Source: Podarcis cretensis (lineage: Eukaryota). From it: DNA of 64,000 bases. Made by a program: the position numbers and the translations under genes. The notes beneath the pieces were generated by a model. The model was not told the origin of the DNA. It did not search any database and saw nothing but the letters and a program-made list of their open reading frames with translations. The DNA lies in NCBI GenBank assembly GCA_951804945.1, contig OX638162.1, positions 29,698,001-29,762,000 of the forward strand, written 5' to 3'. Shown here piece by piece: positions 1,500-24,529 of this stretch (position 1 is the stretch's first letter; each line of letters opens with the position of its first letter).

Positions 1500-1803
1500 G
1501 GCTGCTGCTGCTGCTGCTGCTGCTCTCGCTCTCCCTCCTCTGCGCCTTTCTTTTTCTCTCTCCCTTTTTCTCAGAGCTGGGTTAGGAGGGGCTGTTTTGC
1601 ATCCCTTCACGTCAGCCCTGCCTCATTCCCTTCTTCCTTCCTGCTAGAGAGCGAGAGAGAGAAAAGAGAAAGGGAACTGCGAGCAAGCGAGGAGCCGGCA
1701 GCACCCAGACGAGGATCTGCCCCAGAAGGAGAGGTGAAGCGGCCTCCCTTGCCTGCCTGCCCGTTACCCGCCCCCCTTGCCAAGCCTCTTCGCGAGTCCC
1801 AGG
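1500..1803 (+). other. ZNF710: Probable non-coding first exon of ZNF710 (start approximate)
   Basis: Donor GTGAGT at 1804; the ATG lies in the next exon (24530), consistent with a 5' UTR exon and a long first intron. Confidence 0.55.
1501..1524 (+). repeat. (GCT)8 trinucleotide microsatellite
   Basis: Direct reading. Confidence 0.95.
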
Positions 1804-3782: not shown

Positions 3783-3990
3783 AGAACATAAGAAGAGCCT
3801 GGCTGCTGGATCAAGCCAATGATCCATCTAGTTGAGCACCTTGTTCTCACAGTGGCCATCCAAATGCCTCTGGGAAGCCCGCAAACAAGACCTAAGTGCA
3901 TCAGTGCTCTCCCAGCTCTGTACTCCCAACTCCCATCATATTTGTCCCTGCCAGCAGGAGCTGATTGGAGCTGCAACAACATCTGGAGGC
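3783..3990 (-). mobile_element. CR1-type LINE 3' UTR fragment
   Basis: Reverse complement resembles the 57640-57930 family, with GCTCTTCTTATGTTCTT-type tail. Confidence 0.55.
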
Positions 3991-4526
3991 TCACAGGTTC
4001 CCCACCCCCGACATACATTATCTCAGTAATCATTACTCCCTTATGGAACTGAGGCTCAGAGAGAATACCATGGGTCGGCCTCAAGAGGTCAGTGCCTTTT
4101 CCTTATGGAGCTCAGAGATGGTCTACTGTGTGAAATAGCTTGCTGTTTAATAGCTTTTCATGTCATTGGAAGGTGACGTTCCTATGAGAAATGCTTAGAA
4201 TCATAGAACTGTAGAGTTGGAAGGGACCCAGTTGTCTAAAATGGTGCATTACTTTTCCAAAAGCGTGCACACACCTTTCTCTCCTTTTAAAGTTTTCCTT
4301 TATTCTTGCAGTAGAATCTTTATAACTGGAGTGTGTCTAAAACATTTCCACATATTAGAAAAGATGTTGAAAGTTCACTGGAGACTTTTGAAATGTTTTT
4401 GTTTTTTTCTGTTTGGGGTGCTACAAAGTTTTCTTGGTGTAGAATTTAAGGTTAACCAGAAAAAGGGAGAGAGAGATTGTTCAGGGCTAAGCTGTAGGGC
4501 AGTGGTTCTTGAACTGTTGGGGGGGA

Positions 4527-4848
4527 GGGCCATACTTCAGTGGCAGAGCATCTGCATTGCATGCAGAAGGCGTCAGGTTCAATCCCCAGCATCTCCAGGT
4601 AGGGCCAGGAAAAGTCATTGTAAATACTGAACTACATGAACCAATTACCCGGCTCACAATAGTGAAAGGCTGTAGCTTACTGTATAACAACTGTTTTGCG
4701 TGCAGAAGGTCCCAGGTGCAGTCCCCAGCATCTCCAGATAGAGCTAGGAAAAAACCCTGCATGAAAGCCTGGAAAGTTGCTGCCTACCAGTGTAGAAAGT
4801 AGTGAGCTAGATGGACCAATGTTCTCTCAGTATATGGCAGCTTCATAT
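4527..4848 (+). mobile_element. Two adjacent tRNA-derived SINE copies (Squam3-like)
   Basis: tRNA-Ala-like head (CAGTGGCAGAGCAT...GGTTCAATCCCCAGCATCTCCA) occurs twice; the second is followed by the CTGGAGAGCTGCTGCCAGTC-type body. Confidence 0.7.
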
Positions 4849-4886
4849 ACCTGGGTGGTGTGGAGAATGAAGTTCCAGGAGGAATA

Positions 4887-5056
4887 ATAGAATTGTAGAG
4901 TTGGAAGAGATCCCGAGGGTCATCTAGTCCACACCCACCCATCCTGGTAATGCAGGAATCTCAACTAAAGCATACACAATAGATGGCCATCCAACTTCTG
5001 CTTAAAAACCTCCAAGGAAGGAGAGTCTTACCACCTCCTGAGGCAGACCGTTCCAT
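4887..5056 (-). mobile_element. CR1 LINE 3' end fragment
   Basis: Reverse complement matches the CR1 tail seen at 58090-58316. Confidence 0.65.
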
Positions 5057-5646
5057 GGAGCCCAATTAAACTTTTGAGTATACCTGCAGAGCATGAGTTC
5101 TCAAACTTTCTACCCCCAGGGCCCGCTTGAGACATCTGAAAATTACTGAGACCCACCAGTCACAAAGTGGTAGGAGGTGGAAGCTGAGTTTGGCATAGCA
5201 GTTACGGACATTTTCTGATATCTAATCCATATTTGGAAATTGCTAGATTCTATGCCATTGACATTTCCTCATGGCAAGGAGTTCCACAGCTCAGTTTTCC
5301 TTAAGCTAAGTACAGACATCTGCTCTGGTGAGATTGTGAGGTCTTCTCTTTGTTTTTTAGGCAGAATATGCTAATCTAGAGGCTCTTAAATACAGAATAC
5401 CTTTCTTTCCCTTTCCCTTTCCCTTTCCTTTCTCCTTCTGCCCTCACATGCCTCTCAGAGTATTTTTACTCTTCTCCTGTAATTTTATCTTCCATTCTCC
5501 TGCCACACTCAACTTGAACCTTATTCCTTCCTCTCCCCCACAAAAGTGCCATTTTTAATCTCTCCTCTCTAGCCCTGTTACATTCACTCTAACATTCCTT
5601 CTCCTACATTCCTCCTCTCTTATCCCCTTCCTTTCTATTTCCAGTT

Positions 5647-5670
5647 ATCATCATCATCATCATCATCATC
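5647..5670 (+). repeat. (ATC)8 microsatellite
   Basis: Direct reading. Confidence 0.9.
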
Positions 5671-8600
5671 AGTAATATGTAATTTTGTAACAACATTTTA
5701 TATCACTAGCTAATTTCCTTCAACACCTCCTCTGGCCCTTTCCCATCAGAGGAAGTAAGCCTTCTTCCTTCTTCCCACCCCTCTCTCCTGACCACCTTTA
5801 ATCAGCATATAAGTTGCTGGTGCTGGTCCAACCAATAACTATGGCATGGCTAGGGGCCAGAGGGAGGCCAGTCAGGAGACAGTGGGCAAGCTGTGGCTCT
5901 GAGACCGACCTGAAAGTGCTCAGTGTAGCAAGAATGGCTTCTGTAAGGAAAGGGTTGGCAGTCACTGCTTCTTGCCTTGATACCATTATGCTAGGTTCTC
6001 CCAGGGAGGAGTTTCACTTTCTCTTGGTCCTCAAAGCAGCTACAGCTGCAGCTTAAAGCATCAGTTAAAGGTGGGGAACCGTTATCAAGAATTCAGGATG
6101 TGAAACTGTCACATAGAATTCCACTAACTTAGCTTCAGGAGCAGAAACACACAAGCATGTGATATTGTAGTTGGTTTCCCAGCAAAACATTTAAAATGCT
6201 TTCAGTGTATCCAAGAAGATAATATTGGACCTGTCAGTGAAGGTCTGGTCTGCAGTTTTGGTGGCTATCCCAAGTGATCAAATGCAGGAATGAAAAGGAC
6301 GGAAGGAAGGAAGGAAGGAAGGAGGGAGTGCTAGAATTACAGAAGGAAGAATGCTAGCTTGTTCTAATTTTATCTTTCCTGTTTCGCTGTCTGTCTTGTG
6401 TTGCCGGTGCATGTACTCAAATATTTTACAGTATTCCTGCCACAAACACATTTTCTGTCTTTCTGTTATCTTCACAGATACGTACTTTGGTGTAATTTCC
6501 TTCAAGTTGCATAGACACTAGGTCTTCTCAGTCCCATCAGCTTTGTAGCTGTTTTGCTCTGAGGTTTTCCTTCCTATCCCTTCCCCCTGCCTGTCCAGCT
6601 GAAAAATGTTGAGAACTGCTATACAACCGCCCCCCCCCCCCCAGTTCCTTAGCCATGTCTGCAGTGGGGAGGGGGAGTGTTTCCATGGGAGCTATTCCCC
6701 TCCCAGGATCCAGTGTGCCAGCTGTTCTGTGGATCTTCTTACAGCCCTTGAGATTAAAGGCACTTTGGCTTCTGTGTGTTCCTGGGTAACAGCACTGAAA
6801 TTAAAAGAAGTGAGCCTATGGGAGAACAGAGCAATGTTTCCCTTGCAGAGGTCTTTGTTCACTAAACTTACTCTGCTGCTTTCTTGTTCTCAAAAACTAA
6901 AATATGGGTGTTTTCAAGCTTGCTGTCACATATGCACTCTGTTCTTTGGATGCTGAGTATTATTCCCACCTCTGCTTCTTATCAGCCTTTTGAGTTAATT
7001 CCCCTGTCACACCTGTTCCTTTTTCTAATATCTTCTTCTTGCCTGCCATTCTGTGGTCTGCAACCACTGACCAATATTTAGAAATATAAGCTCCAGGAGT
7101 ATTCTGGTCTCAAGATCATCTCCGACTGGCTTCCCGTTGCATGTGAACTTCCCTTCATTTTGAAAAAGTTTGATAATTAAATCCAACTTGGGATGGTGTG
7201 GAACAAGCAAAAAAAGTTCCATCAGAAATGTTCAAAAAAGTTTTTAACAACCCAAGACAGAGACTCTCCTACAGTTCATGGTTGTTGATCATTATGCCTT
7301 TGTTGTTTGAGCATAGTTCTTTAGTGCTTGCACAATAGAGTGTGAGCAGGTTGTGGTCTATTGGGGTTGCAGAACTATGCCCCAGATTGTGAAATCTGTG
7401 TCCCTGGAGGAGTTTGGAACCTCAGGAAAGCCTTGCTGGATAAGACCAAGAATTCACCTTGTTCATCATCCTGCCTCCAGCAGAAGCCGCTGCCAAACAG
7501 ATGTTCCTGGGGATCCCAGAAGCCCAGGCATGAAGGAAAGAGACCATTCCCACAGCTATGTGGACCCTTTGCCTCTTGAACATGGAGATACCAGTGGCTA
7601 ATAACAGTTGATAGGCCTCTCTGCCATGAATTTGTCATTGCTACATCTTGAGGCAGCAAAATCTGTGGATTAATTATGTGTTGTGAGAGGAGGTACTGCT
7701 TTCATCTATCCAGGCCCTACTGTCAATCAGTTTAATTGTTTCTAGTCTTGTGGGAAGTTTTCCATGAAATTTCAAATTTTCCCACTCCCCTAAATCACTT
7801 GAGATTTGACCTGGCATGTTTATTGGTTCATATTTAGGAAACAAGTGAAAACAAAATGCCATGTTAAATTTGTGTGCTGTAAATACCTCCGACAGTCAAA
7901 AGTAGTTGAACTGAAATATAAGGGTGAGGCAAATCCACAAAACACACTTGCAGCACAATCCTATAATCAAGTTAGGCCAAATGGGGGCTATAAGGTACAG
8001 TGGAAGGCCCACTGTCCTAGCATAAGTTGAAGATAATGTCTGTTGGACTAGAGATAACAGCAACACACCTGCAACACCAGCAGAACTCTTCTAGCATAAG
8101 CTCAAAACAATGCTGAGATGTGGATGGAACTGGGGAGAAGCAGAATTATGCCGAACCTTGTAGTGCTTCAGATGTTTTTCCTGCCCCAACGCTAGAAAAA
8201 AGTCCTGACCTCAACACCAACTACAGAATAGCTGTAGGTGAAATATCACCCACTCAGTAGACTGGAGTAAGAGCCACTGTTCCCCATACCCTTCTGCCCT
8301 ACTCATGATGCCACAGAATCTAATCACAGCACACCAATATCAGTGTCAAAAATCCCAGGGAGAAAAAGACCACAACTTAGATGACGGGGCATGAGACTTT
8401 ATTGCTCTGATCTCGTGTCATGCATATATAGAAAGAGCACAGTGGTAACACTTCTTTCCCAGACCTCTTACAGGTACTTTGTCTTGGGACTTCAGGTCAA
8501 AACACTCTATTCCCTCTCTCAAACTGGGGAGGCCAGAACAAAGCATCCCCACAAGCAAGCTAATAAGTTTAAGTGTTGCAGTTGTCTTCATCACCTCTTG

Positions 8601-10065
8601 CTGGAAGCCTCTTTCCTCTGGACCAGCGGGGAGCAGCATCTACCACCCAGGCAACATGAGGGTCAGCATGCAGAAGTGTTCTCTGCTGGAGGATGCTGAT
8701 CCTGCCCAAGAACTCTTCCCTTGCAGGATCACAGCCTGGACATAGGGAACAGCCGCTGCACACACGCTGCAAGCCCCCTGCAGGGGAAGGGGCGTGTATT
8801 GCCTACTTCTTAGGGGAAACTGAGGCAAGGGGGCTGGATGAGTGCTTAAGTGGAACCACTCCCTCTCTTGCTGTCATCCTCACAAGCACCACCTCTGCAT
8901 CCAGGGCCCACTTGTTCCAGTTGCTGATCACTGCTCATTACTCTCTGTGTGTCTCCCTTCACAGCTCTCTAACAGAGGAAGAGGACCTTCCTTATGCCCA
9001 GCTACATGCAGGCTTCCAGGAAAGCTGCACCTGCTGGGATTATCCTTTCTACACAACTATGAAGCCTTGCCCACTTTCCCACCTGACCACCCCACACTTC
9101 CAGTTCTTCCTCTGTAAGCAGAACAACTCCTGCTACTCTGCTGTCTGTCATGCAACTTTCAAAAGCACAGGAGCCCAGCTGGGGCTACCAGTCTGAATAC
9201 AGGCCTACGTTTGTTTAGGCCTCTATCTCACCCCCCCCCCCACTTCCCCAAAGGCTATTCAATAAAGGCTATAACTTTGCCATGTGTGGTATTTTTTTAT
9301 TACTAGGGATTCGCCATGTCCTCCCAATCTCAGTCCTGTTAAGCTGGCCTCAGGACGGGAGGGGGACTAGGAAGCATGTTCCTGTGGGATGGATTTTAAT
9401 GGATAGGAGAGGATATATTAATTGCAATTTATCTATCCAGGCACCACATGTGTAGGTTGAACAGAGTTTCAAAATCCCATCCTTGGCAGCAAAATTAAAA
9501 GCATAGGAATTAGGCTGCAATGTCTTATTTTGGGCAAGTCCAGCTGGCTTCCCCCTTCTTACCCTGCTTAGCAAAGAATCAGCCAACAACTTGCAAAGTT
9601 TAAAAATATAATTTACTCACATAATCTTGCATTGGTTCACAGCAATGGCAGTAGTAAAAACTATGCAGGAAAAAGATATATATACAATACAACGAGCTTC
9701 AGGCATGTGCCTAAAGCTGAAGCAAGCAGAGGCATGTCTGCATCCAATGCTGGTCAGAAGAAGGGAGGAGAGAGGAATAGGAAGCACTATATGCTCTTTC
9801 CTGTCCAGGAGAGGAAGGGAAATGACACCAATTGTCTACCAATTGTATTTCTATGGTCTGAGTATCTGCCTATCAGCAATACAGCTCTGTGGTATTCGCT
9901 CCTTCTTTTGCTAACTAGTAAGAATATGCTTTTTTTTAGGTTTGGCTGCTAATCTCCCACAGTTCCTGCAAGAGCTCAGGACTAATGACCCTTTCCACTC
10001 TCTGCCTACTTAGACTCCAGGCATCATTAGGGTGGCAGACCTCTCAGACTGTACTGAGGTCATCA

Positions 10066-11319: not shown

Positions 11320-13901
11320 GGGTTGGTTTTTCAAGTTTGAGTGCATGCAATTAATTATTAAGATAGGAACTTCAATCTCAAATCTTGCTAACTTCCATAT
11401 CAATCAGTTACCTAGAAAAGCATTTGTGTGCTGGTTCTGATACAGTTGACAATATATTGCGATGGGTCAAACTGGGACAGTACACTCCAGCTCTAAAGCA
11501 TTTTCCACTTATTCCTTCACCTTCTGTGTCGTGGAGCTTACCTGAGGAAGCTTGGATCTCCCTGTACTCCCCCGCCCCCTCAACTCCTGTATTGGGTTTC
11601 ACATTGTGCAGGGAGGAAGTCCACTGTTGTGAAAGGGGAGAGGCGTTGTCTTTGCTGGTCCACAGCTGTGGCTGGTAGATCTGGCTTCAGATGGCATTCC
11701 TTTGCTGTGCGTGTTTCTAACACTGTATCACAGAGAGTTCAGGTCTGGGAAATAAAGCTCACATTGGAACACCCACAGGAAGTTAAAATGATGGTGTGCC
11801 TTGTAGGTCTGACCTGCTGCAGGTTAGTGCTGACACACCTGTCTGCCTTGAGAAGCATTGACAACAATGCTATGACTTAAATAGACAGCAGAGGGGTGGT
11901 TGTGTTGTGTGAACTTCATTCCCTCCCAGTCATTGTGTAGCATGCAGAGCAACTGAGCAAGGAAATCGCAGCCCTCAACAGACTAGCTTAGCAATGCTGT
12001 GTATGTCAGAAATTACATTTAAATGCTTTTGTAAACTTACATAGCCTTGTAGGCCAACTAATGATTTACTGTTTCCTTTTAAAAACAAATCCTCAGTTGT
12101 CTTTAAAGATACTGCCTTCCAAGTGTGTAATTCTTCTGAGTTATGATTTCCATTACTTGAGTTATGGACCCTCCAAGACCCCATCCCTGCTACTCCTGAA
12201 AACCCAATGCTTTTTTATTCTGGTGCTCTGACTCTAGCAATTCTTGGATGGAAGATGAGCCCTGCCAGCATTAACCCACCTGTGAGGAAGGTGACGCAGA
12301 ACCCTTCCAAAGTTGGCCAGTAGACCACAGTTTTCTTCCTATTGACCAACCAACACTTTGGTCCAGTTGCATTAAATCTGAAATGTTGAGAGGTTGTTGA
12401 AAAATATTTGAGCTGTTTTGGCTGCTTGAGGGTTTCAAGATTTATTTCATTCATTCTCTCTGTCTCTCTCTCTCTTTATGGCATGGGACCATTGAGGACC
12501 AGGCAAAGGGCCTCATCTCCTCACCAACACACATGCCCAGACAGACACTCTTGTTGTCTAGTTTGGAGGTTCAATGGAAAGCAACTTGTTCTCTGCCAGC
12601 TCCAAGGCTGCGTGTTTCTGACAAGCAGGTCCCTGTTTCTTTTGCCTCTGAATATTTTCTCATAAGAGAGAGCCCTTCTCCTAACCTGTAGGATGCTTTG
12701 TTTGTTAAAGCAGAAGCTTTCCTCTTAAATAACCTATTTATTTTTCATTGGATTGTGTGCGCTTTTTTTCAAACAAGGATTCTTACAAGTCGCTTCACCA
12801 TCCATTTGGCCAGATTTATTTTCTGCTAGGTTGAGAATCAAGTCTCTTTCCCTCCGCCTCCACGGGAAAGAGGGAGAATGTGAAAAAAAAGAAAAAAAGA
12901 CTTTTGCATTGTGGTGATTGGCACAGCCTGTGAATCAAGGGTCATTTTGTGTAGCTGTTTCTTTTCAAGCATTCTCTCTCTCTTTCTTTCTTTCTTTCTC
13001 TCTCTCTTCCCCCTTCCATGCACAATCTATTCAGGCTGGAAGCATTCTTTCTTTTCAGAGTCTTTTCTGCCTCTCTCTCTCTTTTCCCCCTCCTTTATTT
13101 TTCATCTCTTTTCATTCTGTTTCCCTCCACCACCCCCCTAGAGGCTCTTTTTTCCCCTTTCCTCATTCCTCTATTCAGTTCCCTTTTTTTTTTGGTTGCT
13201 TCTTTTAAAATAGCTTTTCTATTTTCAGAGAGGACAGGGAACATGTAGGAAGAGAAGTCGTTTCAGAAAGGAGGAACCTGAAAGTCTTTCTCCATTTATT
13301 TCAGCAAACGTTGTTTTTCAAGCAAGAGAACCAAGGGCGACAAAAAGAAACCCAACTTTATTTTGTTCCCACAAACAGCGCAGCCCCAAACACCCCCCAG
13401 AGTATTCATAAGTGGTCACATCTCCAGTAATATGCTAAAATACTGGCAGCTTTGCTTCTTTATTATGTTGCCCTGGGCATTTTGGTGCAGAGACTAGAAA
13501 CACAAGAGGCATGGCTGCTTTCCTGGATAGACCCCATTGATGCCCCTCTTTGCAACTTCAGACATCACCCATTTCTTTTAGCTCTGCACCAAGAGTTGTG
13601 GGGTGCAGGGCCCACTTGGATGCTGCCTTTAGAACAATTTGTCCTTCATGGTGAACCTTCAGCAGGGAGCTTAGGAGATCTCTGTGCTAATGCAGAGAAC
13701 AATTTTGTGGAAAGCAGCAGTGAAGACTTAAAGTTGTGTAATCTCAGGTTTGTAGATCTCTAGATGTGCATTGCTTAAAGCATTGACTAGCCCCCAATAG
13801 CCACGTTAATCAGAATTGCGTGGCGAGTTCCCGCCCCCACCAGGATAAATAAAGACACAAGACACCGTATGTAAGGTTAATTGGGCGAATTAGGCCACAA
13901 C

Positions 13902-13907
13902 TTTATT
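13902..13907 (-). terminator. Poly(A) signal of the retrotransposon
   Basis: AATAAA on minus, followed by a GT-rich element GTGTCTTGTGTCTTT (~13851-13865). Confidence 0.65.
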
Positions 13908-14243
13908 GAATTCAGGAATGAGAGGCATTGGCATAGGCATTGGTCCTAACGGCTATCCGGCTCCAGCCCATTTGCTGGAGACACGGGGAAGGGTTAACCT
14001 TATATCGGGGGAGACTCCCGCAAGGCACGTCGACTAGGAGCTCCCCCGGGTCACCGCTCTGGGGCGTGCCTTTGGCCCACACCTCCATAGGCTTCGGACA
14101 GGGCCACGCCCCCCGGGGTCCTTTAACGGACCACCCTTCGCTCGCTGGGGGGAGGTGATGGCGTTCCTCCCCCACACACATCGTCTTAACCCCTTCTTAC
14201 CAATGCCTACTGCCACACGAGCAAACGCTCGCCGCCAATACTC

Positions 14244-14813
14244 TCATGCCTGAAACCAATCCCTTATCCCCATAGCTATGTCCTCAAGCCATATATCATT
14301 TCCTGCATCAGACAGATGCACGCCATCAAACCAGTAGAGGGCCTCACAGTTGAAACGAATGCCCGGGTGTCGTATGACTTTTCCCCCCAGGGCTGCCACT
14401 CTACGTACCACCGCCCGATCCACGGCTTTCCTCGCCCTATTTATGGCCATCGGGCACCTGCAATCTCTCCAAACCCGCCTCTCCATCAAGGAGGCCCAAA
14501 TGATTGTGAGGTTTGGGTAAGCAGCCTTAAGCTCCTCCAAATCCCCGAGTATGTGCCACTGCAAATCAGCCGCCTTTCTATAGGCCAAATCGTTTTCACC
14601 CAATTGTAAAAGTAAAGCATCCGGGGGGCCCTCTCTCGCGACTCTGGTCTCGAATGCGGGCAACATCTCAGCCCAACGCATTCTCCTCCGTGAAACCCAG
14701 GATATCGTGATGCCATCAGGCAAGCCCAGTCGCGGCCCCAGACCGGAATTGATGGCGCGGACCCTGGCCCAATGCACGATGCTGTGCCCGATTATCCAGA
14801 CGTGCACCCCCAT
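14244..14813 (-). CDS. SGNH/GDSL-type hydrolase (esterase/lipase-like), 189 aa, element-encoded
   Basis: Block I IIGHSIV, block III LQLGENDL, block V DGVHLS; block II appears altered (SRRRMRW). Confidence 0.85.
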   Translation of the reverse strand: MGVHVWIIGHSIVHWARVRAINSGLGPRLGLPDGITISWVSRRRMRWAEMLPAFETRVAREGPPDALLLQLGENDLAYRKAADLQWHILGDLEELKAAYPNLTIIWASLMERRVWRDCRCPMAINRARKAVDRAVVRRVAALGGKVIRHPGIRFNCEALYWFDGVHLSDAGNDIWLEDIAMGIRDWFQA

Positions 14814-14870
14814 ATCTCCTGCAATAAATCAAAGAACAGGCCATGGTCAGTAAAATCCCCAGCTGGGATG

Positions 14871-15800
14871 TCATAAATTCTTTCTCAGGTAGCGCTTGTA
14901 TGCGTCCGATTTCCAGCGGCCTAGATCCTTGATCCTCTCGGCCGTAAGGCCCAGGTGCATTGCCGTGGTGGCCGCTCCAATCCTAAAGGAGTGTGCCGCG
15001 AAATCTGCTGGTGGGAGGCCACATGCTTTAAGTGTTAAGCGCATGACCCTGGTGAACTGGTGCCGCGTCAGGGGTACGCCGTCTGCATGGATCAATAAAG
15101 GCCCCGCCATGTTAGGTCTCATAAACAAGAAGCGCCTGGTGTCCTTCACTGGACACGGGCCTAGTTCCCCTGTTGCCAGTAGCCGGACCAGAGCACCCCT
15201 CCCGAACTGGTCTGTCTTGGAACTACGAATCCGCACGACCAAATCTTCACGTGAAAGTGTAATGTCACTCAACAGTAAGCCCCGGGAGGAGCCATGCTGA
15301 CCTTCCTCAAAAACCACCTCACCCACATGCATTGCCCCGAAAAATGCGATAGAGTATGCCGCTGAAAACAAGCGTGCCTCATACTTTGACCAACAGACCG
15401 TTCTCAACCTTTTATGGATTTGGAAAAGTATGTCAAAAGATATAGGCCTCCTCGCATCCCGGGCTGGGGGCTGCAGTCTACGCCAGCCTTCTAGGGTCTT
15501 TCGTATGACGAACTCAGCGCATGGATCTGACGAAAATAACGCTTTGCAAAAGAAAGAAATCGCTGTGGCCTGTAAGTTGAGGGTTTTTGGGGCACATCCC
15601 CGGCATTTCAAGTGCACTAGATAGGACAAGACCTCAGACCTGATGGGAGGGGCGTTGCTCCTGGCGGGGCTGGATTTTTCACGGAACTTTAAGAAATCCG
15701 ACCACGCCTTCCTATAAGACCTCAATGTGGAGGGCGCCAATGAGGCTAATACTCCCTGAATCACTTCTGGTTCCCAGGACTCTGGTCCCCAAGTCTCCAC
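14871..15800 (-). CDS. Tyrosine recombinase (lambda integrase family), ~309 aa; true start uncertain
   Basis: SLAPSTLRSY N-terminal region; FFGAM[H]VGE, SKTDQ, HSFRIGAAT, GRWKSDAYKRY motifs; frame open from ~15892; track start is GTG. Confidence 0.92.
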   Translation of the reverse strand: METWGPESWEPEVIQGVLASLAPSTLRSYRKAWSDFLKFREKSSPARSNAPPIRSEVLSYLVHLKCRGCAPKTLNLQATAISFFCKALFSSDPCAEFVIRKTLEGWRRLQPPARDARRPISFDILFQIHKRLRTVCWSKYEARLFSAAYSIAFFGAMHVGEVVFEEGQHGSSRGLLLSDITLSREDLVVRIRSSKTDQFGRGALVRLLATGELGPCPVKDTRRFLFMRPNMAGPLLIHADGVPLTRHQFTRVMRLTLKACGLPPADFAAHSFRIGAATTAMHLGLTAERIKDLGRWKSDAYKRYLRKNL

Positions 15801-17479
15801 AGCTGTTCCGGGAAGGGCTGAGGTAGTAACTGAGCATCCGGTGCTAACGAGCGGAAGCGGTCCATCTGAAAACGAGATAGGGCATCCGCGATGTCATTGT
15901 TAACACCAGGCACAAATTTAGCCGAGAAGTGGATATTAAGTTCTAAACAGCGGAGAACAAAGGAACGCAGAAGGGCACCAACTCTTGAGGAATGCGCGGC
16001 CTGCCTAGTAAGGACTGCTACTACCGCCTGATTGTCGGTGTGGAAGCAAACCCTATGGTTGCTAAAGACCTCTGACCATAGGTGGATTGCCACTACAATC
16101 GGGAAGAATTCTAGGAAGGTTAGATCTCTGGTAATGGGCCCTCCCCTCCAGGCTTCAGGCCAACGCTGAGCACACCATTGCCCCTTACAATAAACGCCAA
16201 ACCCGAGGGAGCCTGAAGCGTCCGAATGCACTTGAAAGTCCACCTGCAGTGACAAGTTCTCTTGCCATAGGGAAATACCGTTGTAGTTCTCGAGGAACTT
16301 CAACCAAACTTGTAAGTCAGATTTTACTTCCCTAGAAAGCCGAATCCTATGATGAGGGGAACGCAGGCCTGCCGACAGCTTCGCGAGGCGACCACAGAAA
16401 GGACGGCCAGGGGAAACCACGCGGCAAGCAAAATTTAGATGACCAAGAAGAGCTTGTATCTGCCTAAGTGTAACTTTTTTAAGGGGGAGGAGTTGCTGAA
16501 TGAGGTCACCAAGTGCCACCAGCTTCTCTCTGGGCAGTTTTGAGGTCTGCGCTACAGTGTCCAACTCGATGCCTAAGTAGACCATGGTTGTAGCTGGGCC
16601 CTCCGTTTTGTTGTTGGCTAGGGGAACTCCTAGCTCCCCTGCTAAAGATATGAAAGCTTTGAGAAGCTCTGCACACCCCTGCCTGCTATCAGCCACGAGG
16701 ATAAAGTCGTCCAGGTAATGCGACACACCCTCCGAGCCAGTTCTAAAGCGAAGGGCCCAGTCCAAGAAGGTACTGAATGCCTCAAAGGCTGCGCAGGCCA
16801 CTGAGCAACCCATGGGCATAGCTTTGTCCACAAAATAAGCCCCCTCAAATTTGAATCCGAGGCACCGGAAATCTTCCGGGTGCATTGGCAGAAGCCTAAA
16901 GGCCGACTCGATGTCACATTTTGCCAGCCACGCTCCCTTACCAAATTCGCGAATGACTTTGACCGCATGGTCAAAGGTGGCGTATTTCACTATACAGAGC
17001 TCCTGCGGTATCGCATCATTGACGGACCCACCTTTTGGATAGGAAAGGTTGTGAATCATGCGAAACTCGCCAGGCGCTTTCTTGGGGACTATGCCTAAAG
17101 GGGATACATGAAGGCCAACGATTGGCGGAGCTAGAAAGGGACCGGCTACCCTACCTGCTTTGATTTCTTTGCTAATTTTCTTCCGGGCCACCTCCGGCAT
17201 CTCCCTGACTGACTTCTGATTGGGGGGGTTGCCCGAATTGGGTGGAAACGCTACCGGGATTCTGAAACCAGTACTAAAACCCTCCCATAAGTACACTGCT
17301 GCTGTCCTATTGGGGTAGATGTCTAAGAGGTTTTTTAACGGGGCCAGCTTGATGGGGGAATAGGCCAATTCCAAATTAAGGTTACTGCCTGTTCCCTTGA
17401 GGTCCGAAAGAGGCTCCCTGGCCACCTCTGGGACCGTGATTGTAAGAGCCCCTTCCACCCCGAAAGGGCTGCCTCCCTT
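15761..17479 (-). CDS. Reverse transcriptase + RNase H (pol), probably expressed as a gag-pol fusion
   Basis: KCDIESAFR, MPMGCSVAC, YLDDF; RNase H SDAS, FLEFFPI, TDNQAVV, DIADALSR; frame opens just after TGA at 17482-17480. Confidence 0.95.
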   Translation of the reverse strand, partial: KGGSPFGVEGALTITVPEVAREPLSDLKGTGSNLNLELAYSPIKLAPLKNLLDIYPNRTAAVYLWEGFSTGFRIPVAFPPNSGNPPNQKSVREMPEVARKKISKEIKAGRVAGPFLAPPIVGLHVSPLGIVPKKAPGEFRMIHNLSYPKGGSVNDAIPQELCIVKYATFDHAVKVIREFGKGAWLAKCDIESAFRLLPMHPEDFRCLGFKFEGAYFVDKAMPMGCSVACAAFEAFSTFLDWALRFRTGSEGVSHYLDDFILVADSRQGCAELLKAFISLAGELGVPLANNKTEGPATTMVYLGIELDTVAQTSKLPREKLVALGDLIQQLLPLKKVTLRQIQALLGHLNFACRVVSPGRPFCGRLAKLSAGLRSPHHRIRLSREVKSDLQVWLKFLENYNGISLWQENLSLQVDFQVHSDASGSLGFGVYCKGQWCAQRWPEAWRGGPITRDLTFLEFFPIVVAIHLWSEVFSNHRVCFHTDNQAVVAVLTRQAAHSSRVGALLRSFVLRCLELNIHFSAKFVPGVNNDIADALSRFQMDRFRSLAPDAQLLPQPFPEQLWRLGDQSPGNQK

Positions 17480-18989
17480 TCATGCAGGCCGTAGATGGGT
17501 GACTACCAAAACATCTTTCACATTCGTGACTGTACTTACAGGCCGGCCTCACACAAACCCCTTTATTAAATTCCCAACATAGGCGCTTCTGCTTGGCGGC
17601 GGTCCTCCAAGATTTTGATGGATCCTGGTACTTTTTTTCCACGAAGGGGCCCACATGGTCCGACCAATAGTTTTGGTCCCTCAGGTCCCAGCGCGTGGAG
17701 GGTAGCAAAGAAGCATTTCTACGAAAATCCTCGTCGTAATTCAAAGCAGCAATATCACCCGCTAATTCCCGCGCCCTCCGAATATGGGCCAAGTATGCAA
17801 TCAAATGCATTGCCCGTTTAGGATAAGCAGCGCTGACCACACCCATGAACACCTGGAACCCATTGAGCCAATTGTCGAAGGTATGCTCGGCTCTTGGTGC
17901 TCTGTACCTGCGCTTCCCGTAACTGCGCCTCTTTTCTCCTTTCCCTGTCAGTTTTGCGGGGGGCAACAATCTGAATATGTCAATAAAATCCCCATTGAGG
18001 ATTTTGTCCCTTTTCCTTTGAGATAAGTGGTTGCCTACAATGAAATCTGAGGACAAGTGAGTGGAGGTTTTTACGTCGGGCACCAGGGAGCCATCCTTCC
18101 ATTCCAGTGTCCCATTGAAGGTCTTACGGTAGGAGTTGGCCCTCCTTTCATGCGCCCATGCGGGAAGACCCACGCAATCCTCCCCATGGCCCCAATACTC
18201 CTCCCTAGGAGCATCACTATCAGAATCGGATGAGGAAGAAGTACCTGAGTCCTCCTCGGATTCCGACCGCCTGCTCTTCTTGCTTTTCTTGGACGTGTGC
18301 TTCCTTTTTTCTTTCCTCTTCCCCCACGGGACCTCAGGGGGGGTCTGCTCCGGAATGCTACTTGCAATTACCGCCTGTCGATCGTGCACTTCCTCATCCG
18401 AAGTTGATTCCGACGCGCCCTCGGCTGGCGCCGTCTGCGGGGGCAGGATCTGAAAAAGACTAGGTACACCTGGGTCCTTTTTAGGGTTAGTAGCCTTAGA
18501 GCCCTGGGCGCTAGCCTTGCCCTTCGCGGCTCCCCTCTGGCCTCCTCTTGACTTGCCTGAGGAGGCCGACTGAGAGCTGGTGTTTTTCTTAAGCCGTCCT
18601 GCAGCCTTTTTTGCCGCAGTCAACACAGCCACCGTGGATGCAGAAGTGCCGGGAAGTACTACCTCCCTAAGTTGAGAGTCTTCGATGTAATCCTGGGAGA
18701 ACGCCATTGGTGCAGAAGGCGCTGATGGTCCTGCTGCCGTTGTCATTGGCGACACGATTACTGGTGCAACCGCTGTTGGCGCTGTCGTGATTGTCGTTGG
18801 AGCTGCTGCCCCTGGCGCGGGTGCCGCTTGGCCTGCGGACCTGCTTTGTTTATAAAACTCCTGAAAGGCAGTGAAAAACTGGGCCAAAGCCTGAGGGTTA
18901 CTAGGAATAAGAAATGGTTGAGACTCCTCCTGGTTCCCTTGGTTCCCCCCAGATACAGCGTCATTTACCTGATTACCCTGAGCCGACAT
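17382..18989 (-). CDS. Gag-like protein, 535 aa, with C-terminal Cys/His zinc-finger cluster
   Basis: ATG at 18989 (MSAQGNQ); low-complexity Ala/Ser/Lys N-terminal half; CWEFNKGVCVRPACKYSHECERCFGSHPSTAC; RG-rich tail. Confidence 0.85.
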   Translation of the reverse strand: MSAQGNQVNDAVSGGNQGNQEESQPFLIPSNPQALAQFFTAFQEFYKQSRSAGQAAPAPGAAAPTTITTAPTAVAPVIVSPMTTAAGPSAPSAPMAFSQDYIEDSQLREVVLPGTSASTVAVLTAAKKAAGRLKKNTSSQSASSGKSRGGQRGAAKGKASAQGSKATNPKKDPGVPSLFQILPPQTAPAEGASESTSDEEVHDRQAVIASSIPEQTPPEVPWGKRKEKRKHTSKKSKKSRRSESEEDSGTSSSSDSDSDAPREEYWGHGEDCVGLPAWAHERRANSYRKTFNGTLEWKDGSLVPDVKTSTHLSSDFIVGNHLSQRKRDKILNGDFIDIFRLLPPAKLTGKGEKRRSYGKRRYRAPRAEHTFDNWLNGFQVFMGVVSAAYPKRAMHLIAYLAHIRRARELAGDIAALNYDEDFRRNASLLPSTRWDLRDQNYWSDHVGPFVEKKYQDPSKSWRTAAKQKRLCWEFNKGVCVRPACKYSHECERCFGSHPSTACMKGRQPFRGGRGSYNHGPRGGQGASFGPQGNRQ

Positions 18990-19224
18990 ATCTTCAATCA
19001 ACGCCCTGGATTGCCCAATCGGAGGCAAGAAGCTTAGTTGTTATGTGTTAGCAACAAGCAGTGGTCTGTACTGTAGTTCAGTATTGACTGCACTGGACGG
19101 ACTTAGCACAAATTAAAATCACTGGTAAGCGACCCAACTGCCAGCCCCACTGGCTGTGTTAGCGTCAAGTAAGATATTAGCTCAGTACTGTCTGCACCGG
19201 TATTGCTCTAGCTGGTATAAAATT

Positions 19225-19350
19225 AATGGTTTCTTATTTTTATTTTATATTAATTTTTATATTAAATTATATTAATTTATTCTATTTTATTTTTTTATTT
19301 TTTTATTTTTTTATTTTATTTATTTATTTATTTTATTTATTTATCTATTC
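19225..19350. repeat. AT-only low-complexity tract, (TTTA)-like
   Basis: Direct reading. Confidence 0.85.
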
Positions 19351-19663
19351 ATATAACCTTATGCAATTAAACCAGCTGATCACTAAGTTGACCACTTAGC
19401 CAAATTAGGAAAATTAAGCTATACCCTTACAGCAGCGAGGCTAGACTGCCCGTGCCTATGTAATTAATTAGATGCCAGTTAAATCTCTTGCAAAGTAGAT
19501 TAGGTCTAGATAACCTTTAAAATTAGATTATATTGATTAGAGGCACACTTGAACTAATTATGCTTTACCCAAGGCAAGCACTTTAATTTAAGCGAAATCA
19601 GCAACGTAAAAGCACCAAAACTAGATCAAATTCAAAGAAATAAAATCTGAGTACAATGAAGCA

Positions 19664-19910
19664 AAGTAAAATAACAAGGAAAATGGATGAAATTAGGTTA
19701 AATCAAATTAATTTAAATCGAAGTAAAAATAAGGCCAATCGCAGTAAATTAAGGCCAATAACAGTAATACCAGCAAAGTAAAATAAAGGAAGTAAAATAA
19801 CAAGGAAAATGGATGAAATTAGGTTAAATCAAATTAATTAAATCGAAGTAAAAATAAGGCCAATCGCAGTAAGGCCAATAACAGTAATACCAGCAAAGTA
19901 AAATAAAGGA
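19664..19910. repeat. Tandem duplication of a ~120-126 bp unit in the element leader
   Basis: AAGTAAAATAACAAGGAAAATGGATGAAATTAGG starts at 19664 and again at 19790. Confidence 0.9.
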
Positions 19911-20533
19911 ATGAAGCAGTAAATCCCAGAAATGCCAGCAAATAAAATCAAGTAATAAGGCAGCAAAGGAGTGACGACTGAATTGCCTGCGCAGCACCCA
20001 CTGCAAAGGATTGAATGCTAGTTGCTGCTCGGCCAGAAATAAATTGCCCCTTAAATCACCTTTCAAATTTACTAAAGAACCAAGTTAAGATTTATTTAAA
20101 TGATAAGAACAATTGTGAGGCAATTGCCAAACACACACACTCCCACAGGTGACTGCCTATACTAAGATGGCGGCCACTACGGAAGCAACGTGCTCCAGCA
20201 AAATGGTGCCGGGACCAGCTGGTCGCTAGGCAATGGTGCCGACCGCTGTTGAACAGATCAATCCGGCCCTAAGAAAGCAAGCGTTGTAATCAAATGCCAA
20301 CAAAACGAATGAGTGTAGCACGAAATTAGACGTTGCAGAAAGTTAGAAGTTAAACCCACTTTCCTAGTACCCTCCTGAATTAGCCAAAGCAAGGATAAAG
20401 ACGCAATAAAGACTTAGTTCCCACGTGGCTTGCCTCTCTTAAAATGGCTGCCGCCGCAAGGCCACGTGGTTAATCAAAATGGCGGCTGCAAGCTACCCGT
20501 TGCCTAGCGACGCCGCACAATTTCCCAGTTCAG

Positions 20534-20596
20534 GGCTATCAGACAAATACTATCAGGCACTGCAGGCTATCAGACAAATACTATCAGACAAATACT
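20534..20596. repeat. Short repeat CTATCAGACAAATA x3
   Basis: Direct reading. Confidence 0.85.
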
Positions 20597-21224
20597 AGCC
20601 CCGATTCAGGGCACGCCAAGCTGCAAAGTAATGAGTAAAGGCTAGCGCTGCACTTCGAAACGGCTCCTAAGCCGTAGTGGCACAAGCGGACCACTCGACC
20701 GGCGAGTTCCCCCCCCAAAACCAATACGTTACCGCTGCTGCCTTCGGGTTCACTGGAGATCACCCGTGCGGCCGGAGAGAGGGGAGGAAGATGCCGGAGG
20801 GTGGCTGCGCGGACGGTAACCAGCTGGCTGGCGGCTGGCGGGCTCCCGCAGTTACGAGGTGACCGCAAAGGATAGAGTAATTCACCCGAAGAAGTCGAAG
20901 CGCTGAAGCGGTTCCTGCAGGATGAATGAGGCAATGGCAGCCGCAAGGAGAAGGTGCTCTGGCCGCTGCGAACCAGCCTTTATTCTTAGGCTAACACCGC
21001 CAGCTGTGCAGCGGAGCGGCACGAAGGAGGCAGCCGAGGTTCCTTTTCGCCGGCGAAAGAGCAGGTCGGGAAATCCTTGCAGCGGGAGTGGAGCAGTGGG
21101 AGAAACAGTAACCAAAGCCTGTAAAGGAAAACTAGAAACCGCGTAATTGAACCAAGCACAGAAACCTGCAACAAAGTATACGAACCTCCAGGAAGACCTC
21201 CAAAACGTGGGGGCGAGCCGGCGA

Positions 21225-21425
21225 AAAGAGGGCGAGCCCCCTCCGCGCTGGCCCTAAATAGGGCAAGCCACGCCCCCCAGCCGACCAGCTGATTGGCTAG
21301 CTGGGGGGGGGCAGGCCCCGACGGGGAATCCCCTGCTCTCGCGGGGGCTGGTGCCAGCCCCCGCTCACGTGGGGTGGGCGTGAGGCCCGCAACCCCACCT
21401 CCTGGGGCAGGCCCGGAAGTGGCTT
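21225..21425 (-). promoter_or_regulatory. Putative Pol II promoter of the retrotransposon
   Basis: On minus: TATTTA (21260-21255) and CCAAT (21296-21292); also GC boxes, E-box CACGTG (~21366) and ETS CCGGAAGT (21413-21420). Confidence 0.55.
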
Positions 21426-24400
21426 TTTTGAGCTCTGGCAGGATGCCACGAATACAGGCCCTTTGTTTATTACGACTTCCCAGCCTCTTATCTCCTGAAT
21501 TTCATTGTTGAATTAGTGCCTTTTAGTAGTAATTGTCTTCTGTAGTATTGATAACACTTTGCTTTGGGGAAAGAGTGTGAATTCTCCATCCCTGCTGGAG
21601 AGGATCAGGCTTGCAGGTGGTGGAAGGAGAGGTATAGCCAAGGGCAGAAAACTGCAACTCAAGTACTTCTTCCTGTGCCATTAGAGAGAAACCGAGTTCT
21701 TCTGTGAAAGCCTATGATACAAGAGTGCCTGGCCCTTTCTCAGATGGTTCTCCTATGACAACCTTCCCTAAATCAGTGGCTTCCACATGCCACCTCCCAT
21801 CAGATCCAGCATCACATGGCTGGACTGGCTGGGGTTGCAGTCCTACGTCAATTCCTCAACAAGAGATGGTTGGTCAAGAAATGAAGACGGGAGTCATCCA
21901 GTAGACATGGATTTCCAAAGAGAGAAGTGGAACAAGTCTTGAGAGCCAGAGTGTTGGGCTAGGTAAACCTCTGTCCCAGTCCAGCAAAAGCCAATTCTCA
22001 GGTGCTTATGCTTTTATTCGTGTCAGGGCATAAAAAGTCTGAAGGGGGCTGATGTAGATGCTTGTTTTCTGTGATGGAGATGCTCTCAAAAGTAGGAGGG
22101 TTGAGAGAACCTGCTTCAAATGAAAGCAAAGGTACAGATGACTAGGGAATAGGGACACACCTGTCTGGAATCCAAACATGCACCTGAGTTGGTTCTATGG
22201 TGATGGTGATGTGCCTGCTTCTGTGGGAAGCAATCCTGGCTGTCCCTACGTAGCGGTTGGATCTGGTTGGTTTCTTGAAGGTTGGCTTGGTGTGAAGAGT
22301 GTCCCCTTCAGGTAGGAAAGTGGGTCTTGGTGTGGGTGGTCAGCCACACACTTTGGGGATTAAAGAGGGAGGTAGCCAGTGAGAAGGGACTCCATCCAAA
22401 ATCCATACACCTTGCAGAGCCTGGCTTTGAAAGTTTCTTCCACCCACCCACCGAAATATGTGATTCAAATCTAATGTCACCTGGAAGCTGAGATGGGACA
22501 TTAGAGGAGATGGAGGTGGGTGAGAGAGCGGGGTTGGAATACAGAAGGAGATTAAGAGATTGATGAAAGTGAGAGAGAAAGAGAGAGGAGATAAGAGAGG
22601 CACACAGGACTGAACTATCAAGCTGAGAGAGGCGTTGCCAGGGTAACGGAAAGAATGAGGGAGAGAGAGAAAGATGGAGAGAAGAGGCAAGAATCAGAAA
22701 TGGAAGGGAAGTGAGAGGGAGGGAGAGCAGGCAATGGATTTTAAAGGGTGAATGAGAGAAGCAGATGGGTTTTAAAGGCTGAAGCGGCTGGACAGGCTGA
22801 CACACACACGACAACTAAAAAAAAAAAAAGCTGCCTATGCCCACAATCAATAATTCTAGGTGGGCTACCCTCTGGCACCTTTGCTTAGGATTGCTACCAT
22901 TCTGTGCCCAGGACATGCCGGCTGGCACAGAAGTGGCTGCCATCATGGCCAGTCTCCAGCTTCAAGGCTGCCTCCTGTGAGGAGGGAATCAATACTGTTG
23001 TTCCCCTTTGCCTCTACAGCCCATTGACATGAAAGTGTGCTTAACAGGGGCCCTCCTTGCATTGTGGTGGAGCTTGCATGCAAAATGGGTCAGGCACGGA
23101 GGCCAGCCTGCGGGTCACCACATGGCCTTCTCCTGCTTGTCTCTGGGTGACCTGATGGGCCCCTTCTTGGCCCTGCTGCGCTCATTGCCGCCTCCGCCTC
23201 CTCTAATCCTCCCCCATACCCAGCCTCCTTCCTTCCTTCTCTCTTCCTTTCTTCTCCGATGCCTGCCAGCCCCCTCTTCTCTTCTCCTTCCTCCTCTCTC
23301 CTTCCTGCCTCCTCCCCTCTCTCCTTTGTTTTGGCTGCCTCCATACACTGCTTTCTCCTTCCCCCTCCTCCCCCCACCTGCCTCTTGCTATCTTTCCCCC
23401 CTCCATTTCCTCTTTTTGTCTTCCCTTGTTCACATTTCTTTTCTCTGCACCAGCCATCCTCACCCGCACAGGGTTTAAGAGCATGCAGGCAGCTCTGGCG
23501 GAGAATGAGGTTCATTTATTTCCAGTGGTTCAAAAGTGGGAAGTTCTGAGGTTGTTCTGTCTAGCTGTTCCCTTTGCCTCAGGGTTAGTCCAAGCCTGGC
23601 TTGTCTTTCTGCTCTGCACCCAGGAAGACTGGCTTTGTATTTCAGGTGAAGAACAGTTATTCTGCCTCTTCTGGTCCTGCTAGCCCCATACTGGGGGAAG
23701 AAGCAGTATCCCCCCCCCCCATGCTCTCCTCTCTCTGTCTTAGCTTTCTGGTTCTTCCCAGTCACACAAAAAGCACATACTGAGAGGGGAGGTCCTAGGG
23801 TTCTAAGGGCTGCCTCCTAGGTCCGAGTCCTGCCTGGCCCTGCTTGCCACCTTCACAACCAAGGAGGCTGCTGTGCCCTTTCTTGTAGAAAGGAATCCAG
23901 CCCAACCTGGTGGGCGACAACATCCCAGTACCTGGGGAGGTGCAGCAGTCAGACTGCCTGCTCTTTCTAGAAGTGCAGAATTTGCCACATTTGGGGAGGC
24001 TCCTGACCTGGCATGCAGAAACCTTCCCCCCAGGTATCAGATAGAAGGCCACAAGATTTTGCTACACCCTGAGCCCTTTACAATAAAGAATAAACACAGT
24101 GCAACTGAGCCATTGTACAGGGCTCTATGGAATACCGGTATATGGTTTCTGCTAGTCTTGGGAAATGGTAAGGATATAAATGTCTGGCCTGTCATCTGGC
24201 CACTAGGCATTCCCACCACCACCATCCCTCATTCTGCCAGTGAAGCACACCCATGTTTAGATTGCAGGTTTTGCTCCATTTTCAGGAGTGCAGAATATTT
24301 GTTTAGCTCCAAAACATGGGATGCTTTCTGGTTCTAAGCTCTGCCCTTTGGTGTTCCTTTCATTTTAAAGGCTATGTCCAGAGTAGATGCCACTTTCCAT

Positions 24401-24529
24401 TGCCATGATTTTGGAGCTGCCACCTAGGGCTCTCAGCCCACAGCCCTCTGCTTGGCCAACAGGGTAATGGCTTCTCTTTCTCCCCTTTGTTCCTGCAGAC
24501 AACAGAAGCTGTGCTTGATGGTATGAGCC

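What the first reader, a model, noticed from the sequence alone, without database searches (positions are those of the whole stretch)
13783..14243. No split direct repeats or ITRs found: an apparently repeat-less element bounded only by TTGA
Ngaro/PAT elements normally have an A1...B1-A2-B2 layout and DIRS1 has ITRs plus an ICR; these let the RNA regenerate both ends. By eye I find no long match between the 460-bp 3' region and the 5' end, or within the 3' region. Only TTGA recurs at both inferred junctions (predicted empty site AAAGCA-TTGA-GCTCTGG), which fits a short YR crossover core. The predicted TSS (~21225) and poly(A) site (~13880) both lie inside the ends, so a monomer transcript would lack both termini. 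Options: B1xB2 recombination deletion, assembly collapse, or a lineage that replicates from circles or tandem read-through transcripts.
Basis: partly seen in the sequence, partly recalled or inferred. Interest (0 to 1): 0.75.

Follow-up and report, generated by a model that had tools for sequence, protein, structure and literature searches.

The report
Lizard Ngaro retrotransposon missing split repeats
This lizard jumping gene really lacks the repeated ends its family normally uses to copy itself, but it looks like a one-unit leftover of a normal element that lost its duplicated tail, not a new repeat-free kind.

Summary
Observation confirmed: the 7.6-kb minus-strand element (gag, RT/RNase H, tyrosine recombinase, SGNH hydrolase; best hit Podarcis, 83%) has no long direct or inverted repeat, in itself or in the window. 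Its layout is A-ORFs-B. TTGA alone is chance-level (51% of random site pairs). Most likely it derives from a standard Ngaro (A1-ORFs-B1-A2-B2) by loss between B1 and B2. Contigs of two conspecific runs show joints from B's inner edge (14173/14194) to the predicted TSS (21228/21224), the A2-B2 junction. A 37-bp RNA helix hides the AAUAAA only when B is preceded by the post-ORF arm, as in B1. In one long-contig invertebrate assembly, 2 of 7 intact relatives are also repeat-less; one has a proven empty site, and both sit beside split-repeat sisters. Repeat-less consensus sequences of split-repeat families are already in print. Against: no B-to-A junction among 15 of 103 joints shown, and no lizard assembly or long reads could be examined, so assembly collapse or a natively repeat-less lineage remain open. 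Mostly ordinary; the poly(A) switch is the interesting by-product.

The parts
13783..13786 (.). TTGA core at the element's 3' end (TCAA on the element strand); probable recombinase crossover core
   Evidence: B ends in TTAA or TTAAA in 9 of the 9 split-repeat relatives examined. Not above chance on its own.
13787..14194 (-). B unit, single copy, highly structured; carries AATAAA at 13907-13902 and a terminal hairpin at 13800-13824
   Evidence: Inner edge from read-contig joints at 14173 (+13 letters, effectively about 14181) and 14194; very high depth. Folding z = -4.0.
13905..13944 (-). 3' arm of a 37-bp RNA helix that covers the first three bases of AAUAAA
14199..14260 (-). 5' arm of the same helix; lies outside B, between the hydrolase ORF end and B, so it is B1-specific if the joints mark B's edge
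   Evidence: AAU of the signal is unpaired with probability 0.09-0.19 with the arm and 0.91-0.94 without it
14244..14828 (-). SGNH/GDSL hydrolase ORF, 194 aa stop to stop, Ser-Asp-His motifs present
   Evidence: Pfam Lipase_GDSL_2, E 2.9e-6, below the curated cut-off. Lacertid and gecko relatives at 40-74%.
14871..15893 (-). Tyrosine recombinase ORF, 340 aa, open; His stands at the first catalytic Arg position, as in its closest relative P0001
15761..17479 (-). Reverse transcriptase / RNase H ORF, 572 aa, YLDD present; ends about 40 aa after RNase H, no methyltransferase domain
   Evidence: Pfam RVT_1, E 7.4e-14; translation
17382..19040 (-). gag-like ORF, 552 aa stop to stop (first ATG 18989), Cys/His cluster near the C-terminus
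   Evidence: No Pfam hit. Matches the first ORF of related elements.
19041..21227 (-). 2.2-kb 5' leader with an AT-rich tract (19230-19356), a 126-bp tandem duplication (19664-19911) and YY1-like motifs
   Evidence: Parts are single-copy with 0 differences in X1 and X3.
21224..21427 (-). A unit, single copy: promoter with ETS (21419), E-box (21371), CCAAT (21296), GC/KLF (21275), TATA-like (21260) and TCT-like initiator (C at 21228)
   Evidence: Motif positions (names recalled). Inner edge from joints at 21228 and 21224 and the depth step at about 21227.
21428..21431 (.). TTGA core at the element's 5' end
   Evidence: Flank contig ends at 21397 in X1 and X3.

Best explanation
This is a real one-unit (A-ORFs-B) derivative of a hydrolase-bearing Ngaro retrotransposon whose full form is A1-ORFs-B1-A2-B2. 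Inferred working of the full form: A is the promoter and ends at about the TSS; the RNA reads through B1 because the post-ORF arm pairs over its AAUAAA, copies A2, and ends in B2, where the arm is absent. That RNA holds one whole B and one whole A, enough to rebuild a circle with two B|A junctions, and the recombinase integrates it at a TTAA/TCAA-type core. This copy lost A2 and one B, either by homologous B1xB2 recombination after insertion or by recombinase resolution of the two-junction circle before insertion; the two routes give the same product. It keeps clean ends but cannot rebuild them from RNA, and its recombinase has a changed catalytic residue, so it is most likely a dead end that may still supply gag, RT and hydrolase in trans. 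Shown: gene content, absence of repeats, right boundary, A-to-B joints in the species, predicted helix, the same monomer type among distant relatives. Inferred: the full layout in lizards, the TSS, the poly(A) switch, and the route of loss.
For: (1) Two different joints in conspecific runs link B's inner edge to within 4 nt of the predicted TSS: X1 14173 to 21228 (depth 16.4) and X3 14194 to 21224 (depth 14.2), table 5c. Random internal deletions of a 7-kb interior would not be expected to share both edges. (2) The helix covers the poly(A) signal only with the arm present; its duplex energy of -50.7 kcal/mol is reached by 2 of 1144 sampled window pairs. A switch of this kind needs a second B without the arm. 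(3) Depth at two B positions (13833, 14168) is 1.3-3.5 times that at the arm (14253) in all 4 runs, where 2 is expected for two B per element (table 4; weak). (4) In one long-contig assembly (G002), 5 of 7 relatives with intact ORFs have the split repeats and 2 do not. L099 is a clean repeat-less insertion into a MITE, with the empty site shown by intact MITE copies. The repeat-less L099 and L180 are sisters of split-repeat L101 and L103 (support 92 and 99), so the loss recurs. (5) In print: the DIRS-54_XT consensus lacks the repeats but 2 copies have them, and many copies lost them (PMC9210276); VIPER and TATE consensus sequences lacked the 3' repeats (PMC6681497); solo AB units occur (PMC8547959; SIRE).
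Against: No B-to-A (21427 back to 13787) joint and no high-depth A-to-B joint is among the 15 of 103 joints or 12 of 19 table-5c rows shown, nor among the 24 of 1119 loose ends. This may be because multi-copy junction contigs are only about 50 nt long, but that is my inference. Each supporting joint is single-copy and shown in one run only. Depth stays high across the arm (X1: 3408 at 14174, 3387 at 14253), so B could extend to about 14260, which would make the helix not B1-specific. Folding z-scores do not favour the RNA strand (-4.0 minus, -4.5 plus), only 3 of 37 helix pairs are G-U, and a cruder control (70 nt before B against all of B) was not significant for the window (z -1.6) and reached z of -2 or lower in only 5 of 16 relatives. 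Most of those relatives have no AATAAA in B (4 of 16 have AATAAA or ATTAAA). All split-repeat examples fetched are invertebrate elements at 26-40% recombinase identity; no lizard copy with split repeats was seen.
Confidence: 0.6

Rival explanations
1. The lacertid lineage is natively repeat-less. All copies are A-ORFs-B, and the ends are restored from tandem or circle read-through RNA, or the unit is excised and re-integrated as DNA by the recombinase, like a Crypton. The A-to-B joints would then be non-autonomous deletion derivatives.
For: No B-to-A junction among the rows shown for 4 runs. The ends are intact and the four ORFs are open. X6 shows a mini-element joining 13866 to 21337 that keeps only the outer ends, so other deletion derivatives exist. 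Cryptons move with only 4-6-bp terminal repeats (PMC3212892, passages). 2 of 7 intact relatives in G002 are repeat-less.
Against: A tandem or circle model also predicts a B-to-A joint, which was not shown. The poly(A) signal lies upstream of the promoter on a unit circle, so no terminal redundancy arises. Repeat-less relatives do not form a clade, and L099 and L107 had no second full-length copy in their assemblies. The joints share both edges. This copy's recombinase has His at the first catalytic Arg.
Confidence: 0.18
2. Assembly collapse: the locus is really A1-ORFs-B1-A2-B2 and the assembler took the short path from B1 to the flank.
For: A-ORFs-B is the shortest path through such a repeat graph (inference). 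Database consensus sequences of DIRS-54_XT, VIPER and TATE lack the repeats while real copies have them. The left junction has no read cover to confirm it. The X3 joint at single-copy depth could belong to this locus.
Against: The element is assembled without a gap and keeps copy-specific alleles and a 126-bp tandem pair, which suggests long reads. The joints shown for X1 and X3 differ although both carry this insertion. A genuine monomer exists in an assembly that resolves 100%-identical repeats in five other elements.
Confidence: 0.14
3. The boundaries are misplaced: the element is a B1-truncated copy, or the 5' end comes from another subfamily, and TTGA is coincidence.
For: TTGA is chance-level; the left flank was not covered and no empty site was seen.
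Against: The right flank contig and the depth steps agree with the inferred ends. The core resembles the TTAA end of relatives. Truncation exactly at the end of B1 gives the same sequence as the best explanation.
Confidence: 0.08

Closest known systems
Hydrolase-bearing Ngaro elements of Xenopus (DIRS-53_XT, DIRS-54_XT; PMC9210276)
   Same: Gene order gag, RT/RH, YR, SGNH hydrolase; no methyltransferase; copies that have lost split repeats are reported; the DIRS-54_XT consensus is repeat-less.
   Different: DIRS-53_XT has A (236 bp) and B (152 bp) repeats. Here A is about 200 bp and B about 400 bp, each single, and there is a 2.2-kb leader. No direct sequence comparison was possible.
Lacertid relatives annotated as 'integrase/recombinase xerD homolog' (Podarcis, Zootoca, Lacerta)
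   Same: Recombinase 55-83% identical; fused RT and hydrolase gene models; P0001 shares the His at the catalytic Arg position.
   Different: Only proteins were available, so their terminal layout is unknown.
Invertebrate Ngaro elements in host contigs of MAGs (L086, L090, L093, L095, L101, L103; L099)
   Same: gag/RT/YR order; TTAA-type core at the B end; L099 has the same repeat-less A-ORFs-B layout.
   Different: 30-35% recombinase identity; no hydrolase; most have A1..B1-A2-spacer-B2; no AATAAA in B.
Solo AB units (Cafeteria Ngaro, PMC8547959; SIRE of T. cruzi VIPER, PMC6681497)
   Same: Reciprocal product of recombination between split repeats; the lizard A-to-B joints fit this class or the A2-B2 junction.
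   Different: They keep A and B and lose the ORFs; this copy keeps the ORFs and loses A2 and one B.
Crypton DNA transposons (PMC3212892)
   Same: Tyrosine recombinase, 4-6-bp terminal direct repeats, no long repeats.
   Different: Cryptons have no gag, RT or RNase H.

Membership tests
Ngaro-like | gag, RT/RNase H and tyrosine recombinase in this order on one strand | tested here: met
Ngaro-like | No methyltransferase domain after RNase H | tested here: met
   ORF ends about 40 aa after the last RNase H motif; only RVT_1 in Pfam
Ngaro-like | SGNH hydrolase ORF after the recombinase (vertebrate subgroup) | tested here: met
   (E 2.9e-6, below cut-off); feature from PMC9210276
Ngaro-like | Split direct repeats A1..B1-A2-B2 in this copy | tested here: not met
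   The copy is therefore filed as a derivative, not as a complete member.
Ngaro-like | Split direct repeats in the lizard family it belongs to | tested here: inconclusive
   A-to-B joints present; B-to-A joint not among the rows shown
Ngaro-like | RT tree placement with named reference Ngaro elements | not testable with these tools
   No named reference sequences held. A quick recombinase tree places it in a 35-row clade (support 99) that holds all hydrolase-bearing loci, next to split-repeat elements.
DIRS1-like | Inverted terminal repeats plus internal complementary region | tested here: not met
   Longest inverted match between the ends is 10 nt
DIRS1-like / PAT-like | Methyltransferase domain | tested here: not met
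Crypton | Recombinase only, no reverse transcriptase | tested here: not met
   Intact RT ORF

The most novel reading that the evidence does not exclude
Repeat-less A-ORFs-B units are not only post-insertion deletions but are made and inserted as such. Either the recombinase resolves the two-junction circle into a monomer circle and a solo A-B circle and integrates each, or the lacertid lineage has dropped the split repeats altogether and moves its unit as DNA, Crypton-like, while still carrying RT. Alongside this, a post-ORF RNA arm acts as a B1-specific poly(A) switch, which would explain how split-repeat elements read through the first of two identical B units.
Probability: 0.2. Interest if true: 0.65.

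Novelty: new member of a known kind. Interest (0 to 1): 0.27.

Why it matters
As a repeat-less lineage it would overturn the accepted need for split repeats in Ngaro replication, but the evidence points to an expected deletion product. Two by-products are useful. First, A appears to end at the TSS and a post-ORF arm may hide the poly(A) signal in B1 only; this is a cheap, testable answer to how one RNA reads through the first B and stops in the identical second B. I found no statement of it in the passages read; 7 library searches were not aimed at it, and the main Ngaro papers by Goodwin and Poulter did not appear in the library listings. Second, clean monomers with intact ORFs occur in long-contig assemblies (2 of 7 in one), so 'no repeats found' in a single copy or a consensus is weak evidence about a family.

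Tried and rejected
No whole genome is held for the window, so other lizard copies could not be aligned. A 21-nt B-end pattern found 0 matches in the metagenome collection. The viral collection gave no relatives. Rfam on 13000-22500 gave only 2 chance microRNA matches far below cut-off, so no known ribozyme. No RNA holder was listed among the 24 runs; this says nothing on expression. The left flank bin 13401-13701 had no cover in any run and no empty-site joint was shown. tblastn of all 139 fetched proteins against the window found no gene model running into A or B (2 weak hits, E 0.16 and 0.55). Searches for solo A-B units of L086 and L090 in G002 gave no clear case: none for L086, one diverged candidate for L090 that I did not examine. 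L107's family has only a fragmented second copy. The pre-B versus whole-B duplex control was mostly not significant. The 20-40-fold depth excess at the ends was considered as proof of many solo A-B units and rejected: the profile is patchy (X1: 487 to 8584 within B) and loose ends past 14260 continue into diverged hydrolase ends, so diverged subfamilies explain it equally well. Short matches between B and the leader (13822-13837 with 20701-20716) are chance-level. The Xenopus paper's supplement, which tabulates repeats per copy, could not be read and may bear on how common repeat-less copies are. Searches for Ngaro or DIRS in Podarcis or lacertids gave nothing relevant (0 papers; 3 off-topic listings). 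Earlier scan findings were not open.

Full report
What is there. The window holds a 7.6-kb element on the minus strand, 21427 to 13787, with four open frames: gag-like (17382-19040), RT/RNase H (15761-17479), tyrosine recombinase (14871-15893) and an SGNH hydrolase (14244-14828). The best recombinase hits are from Podarcis (83%), then Zootoca, Lacerta and geckos, so the host is a lacertid or close to one. There is no methyltransferase domain. This gene set matches the hydrolase-bearing Ngaro elements described in Xenopus (PMC9210276; passages and section 8 read). CpG observed/expected is 0.53-0.71 inside and 0.12-0.13 in the flanks, as expected of a fairly young insertion. The recombinase has His where most relatives have the first catalytic Arg; its nearest relative P0001 shares this.

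The observation. No long direct or inverted repeat links the ends or lies within the 3' region, and no second A or B lies elsewhere in the window. The longest exact match between the 3' region and the 5' leader is 12 nt, against 9.8 on average in 200 shuffles. TTGA is at both inferred junctions, but 51% of 5000 random site pairs share a 4-mer under the same tolerance, so it needs outside support. That support comes from two sides. In runs X1 and X3 the unique right-flank contig (3504 bp, 0 differences, single-copy depth) stops at 21397, one 31-mer inside the element, placing the end at about 21426-21431; it runs on without a break, so no empty allele is apparent in either animal. And B ends in TTAA or TTAAA in 9 of 9 split-repeat relatives examined, one letter from the TCAA read on the element strand here. 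The left end is supported only by bin depth.

Other copies in lizards. No genome is held, so I laid contigs of 4 of the 24 listed runs on 13100-22100 at 85% likeness. Depth in X1 is about 18 in unique DNA, 106-340 over gag, RT and recombinase, 7300-10000 over B and 3450 over the bin holding A, with a step at about 21227. Table 5c shows two joints from B's inner edge to A's inner edge: 14173 to 21228 with 13 letters between (X1) and 14194 to 21224 with 7 letters between (X3). Position 21228 is the C of a TCT-like initiator 32 nt downstream of the TATA-like box (motif names recalled). An A unit that ends at the TSS and is followed directly by B is the A2-B2 junction of the standard layout, or the solo AB unit that results from A1xA2 recombination. 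Against this: both joints are single-copy and each is shown for one run; no joint going back from 21427 to 13787 is among the 15 of 103 joints shown; and X6 shows a different mini-element (13866 to 21337). My explanation for the missing B-to-A joint, that multi-copy junction contigs are too short to be laid, is inference and could not be tested.

An internal sign of a second B. The minus-strand RNA folds a 37-bp helix between 14260-14199 and 13944-13905. It covers the AAU of AAUAAA: these bases are unpaired with probability 0.09-0.19 when the arm is present and 0.91-0.94 when the RNA starts at 14194. Both joints exclude the arm. So a B preceded by the ORFs would be read through and a B preceded by A would be cleaved, which is what A1-ORFs-B1-A2-B2 needs. 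The duplex (-50.7 kcal/mol) is matched by 2 of 1144 window pairs sampled along the element. Cautions: it was picked after inspection; folding z-scores are alike on both strands; only 3 pairs are G-U; a cruder control was not significant here (z -1.6) and reached -2 in 5 of 16 relatives; and read depth stays high across the arm, so B might include it.

Distant relatives. A recombinase alignment fetched 80 metagenome and 48 MAG loci, apparently animal host DNA at 24-57% identity. Among those with long flanks, L086, L090, L093, L095, L101, L103, L105, L106, L115 and L120 show A1..B1-A2-spacer-B2. For one assembly with contigs of 0.36-2.8 Mb (G002; long-read origin inferred, not checked) I took the 14 strongest distinct places of 25 matches. 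Of the 7 with intact ORFs, 5 have both repeat pairs and 2 have none; of the 7 with broken ORFs, 2 have both pairs, 1 has the B pair only and 4 have none. One repeat-less copy, L099, sits in a MITE; intact MITE copies give the empty site and show a clean insertion with a 2-bp core. In a quick recombinase tree (53 rows; careful search unfinished; L120 left out as too short) L099 groups with split-repeat L101 (92) and L180 with split-repeat L103 (99); a third, L107, is unresolved. The window falls among lacertid proteins inside the clade that holds the hydrolase-bearing loci. One of these, L083, has a 761-bp direct repeat after its hydrolase, but its contig lacks the 5' end. So repeat-less monomers with clean ends arise repeatedly from split-repeat lineages.

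Literature. PMC9210276 (section 8): DIRS-54_XT has no repeats in its consensus but has them in copies 5 and 10, and copies often lose 5' or 3' repeats; its supplement could not be read. PMC6681497 (passages): VIPER and TATE consensus sequences lacked the 3' repeats that real copies have, and SIRE equals A2-B2. PMC8547959 (passages): solo AB units in Cafeteria. PMC7192593 (passages): DIRS-1 needs its ICR, and integration leaves a short core at both ends. PMC4157794 (passages) and PMC3212892 (passages) gave the defining features of the groups and of Cryptons. The two-junction circle model for split-repeat elements is recalled, not taken from a call.

Mechanism and odds. Best reading (0.60): a genuine A-ORFs-B derivative of a split-repeat Ngaro, formed by B1xB2 recombination or by recombinase resolution of the two-junction circle, unable to rebuild its ends from RNA. 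Rivals: natively repeat-less lineage or DNA-level mobility (0.18), assembly collapse (0.14), misplaced ends (0.08). The circle read-through idea is weak on geometry, since the poly(A) signal precedes the promoter on a unit circle.

Verdict. This is a new lizard member of a known kind in a derived state that has precedent. Interest 0.27, mostly for the testable poly(A) switch and for the lesson that single-copy repeat searches mislead in this superfamily.

Noticed in passing
L099:4573-10529 (G002:C11): Repeat-less Ngaro with three intact ORFs inserted cleanly (2-bp core) into a high-copy palindromic MITE, in an assembly that resolves split repeats elsewhere; a natural monomer with a proven empty site.
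   Followed up: yes
L086, L090, L093, L095, L101, L103, L106, L115, L120: Split-repeat relatives have a unique spacer of about 50-170 bp (950 in L115) between A2 and B2, often starting with a CCCTCCC-like or T-rich run. A starts with two or three TTAA motifs and holds a GCATGCGC motif. The usual A1..B1-A2-B2 scheme omits the spacer.
   Followed up: partly
L086, L090, L095, L099, L101, L106: The inner edge of B1 lies within a hairpin whose upstream arm (CTTGGG-like) is outside B and pairs with a CCCAAG-like motif in B; seen by eye, and the energy control was weak.
   Followed up: partly
window 13866 / 21337 (run X6): A contig joins the outer 80 bp of B to the outer 90 bp of A with 8 letters between: a mini-element without TATA box or poly(A) signal.
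   Followed up: no
window 21265-21325: An abundant subfamily lacks about 55 bp of the A promoter, including the CCAAT and GC-box region (joint depth 882 in X5, 83 in X1, 100 in X6).
   Followed up: no
window 20164-20483: Three to four YY1-like motifs in the 5' leader fall in the short patches conserved in a diverged copy of another species (X6).
   Followed up: no
window 24527-26008: Large plus-strand exon of a C2H2 zinc-finger gene (ZNF710-like by recall, no call names it). The element lies about 3 kb upstream in antisense, probably in an intron.
   Followed up: partly
P0123-P0126, P0129, P0130: Lacertid and gecko gene models fuse the Ngaro hydrolase to host-like proteins (ZNF638-like or SRRM2-like in both Zootoca and Podarcis, several isoforms); possibly a domesticated hydrolase exon.
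   Followed up: no
L081-L128: Many GTDB 'bacterial' and 'archaeal' MAGs hold eukaryotic host contigs with Ngaro retrotransposons, some over 2 Mb long.
   Followed up: no
window 36001-38000 and 55001-56000: GC-rich islands (64-69% GC) with long frames that have no Pfam match; probably promoters or CpG islands.
   Followed up: partly
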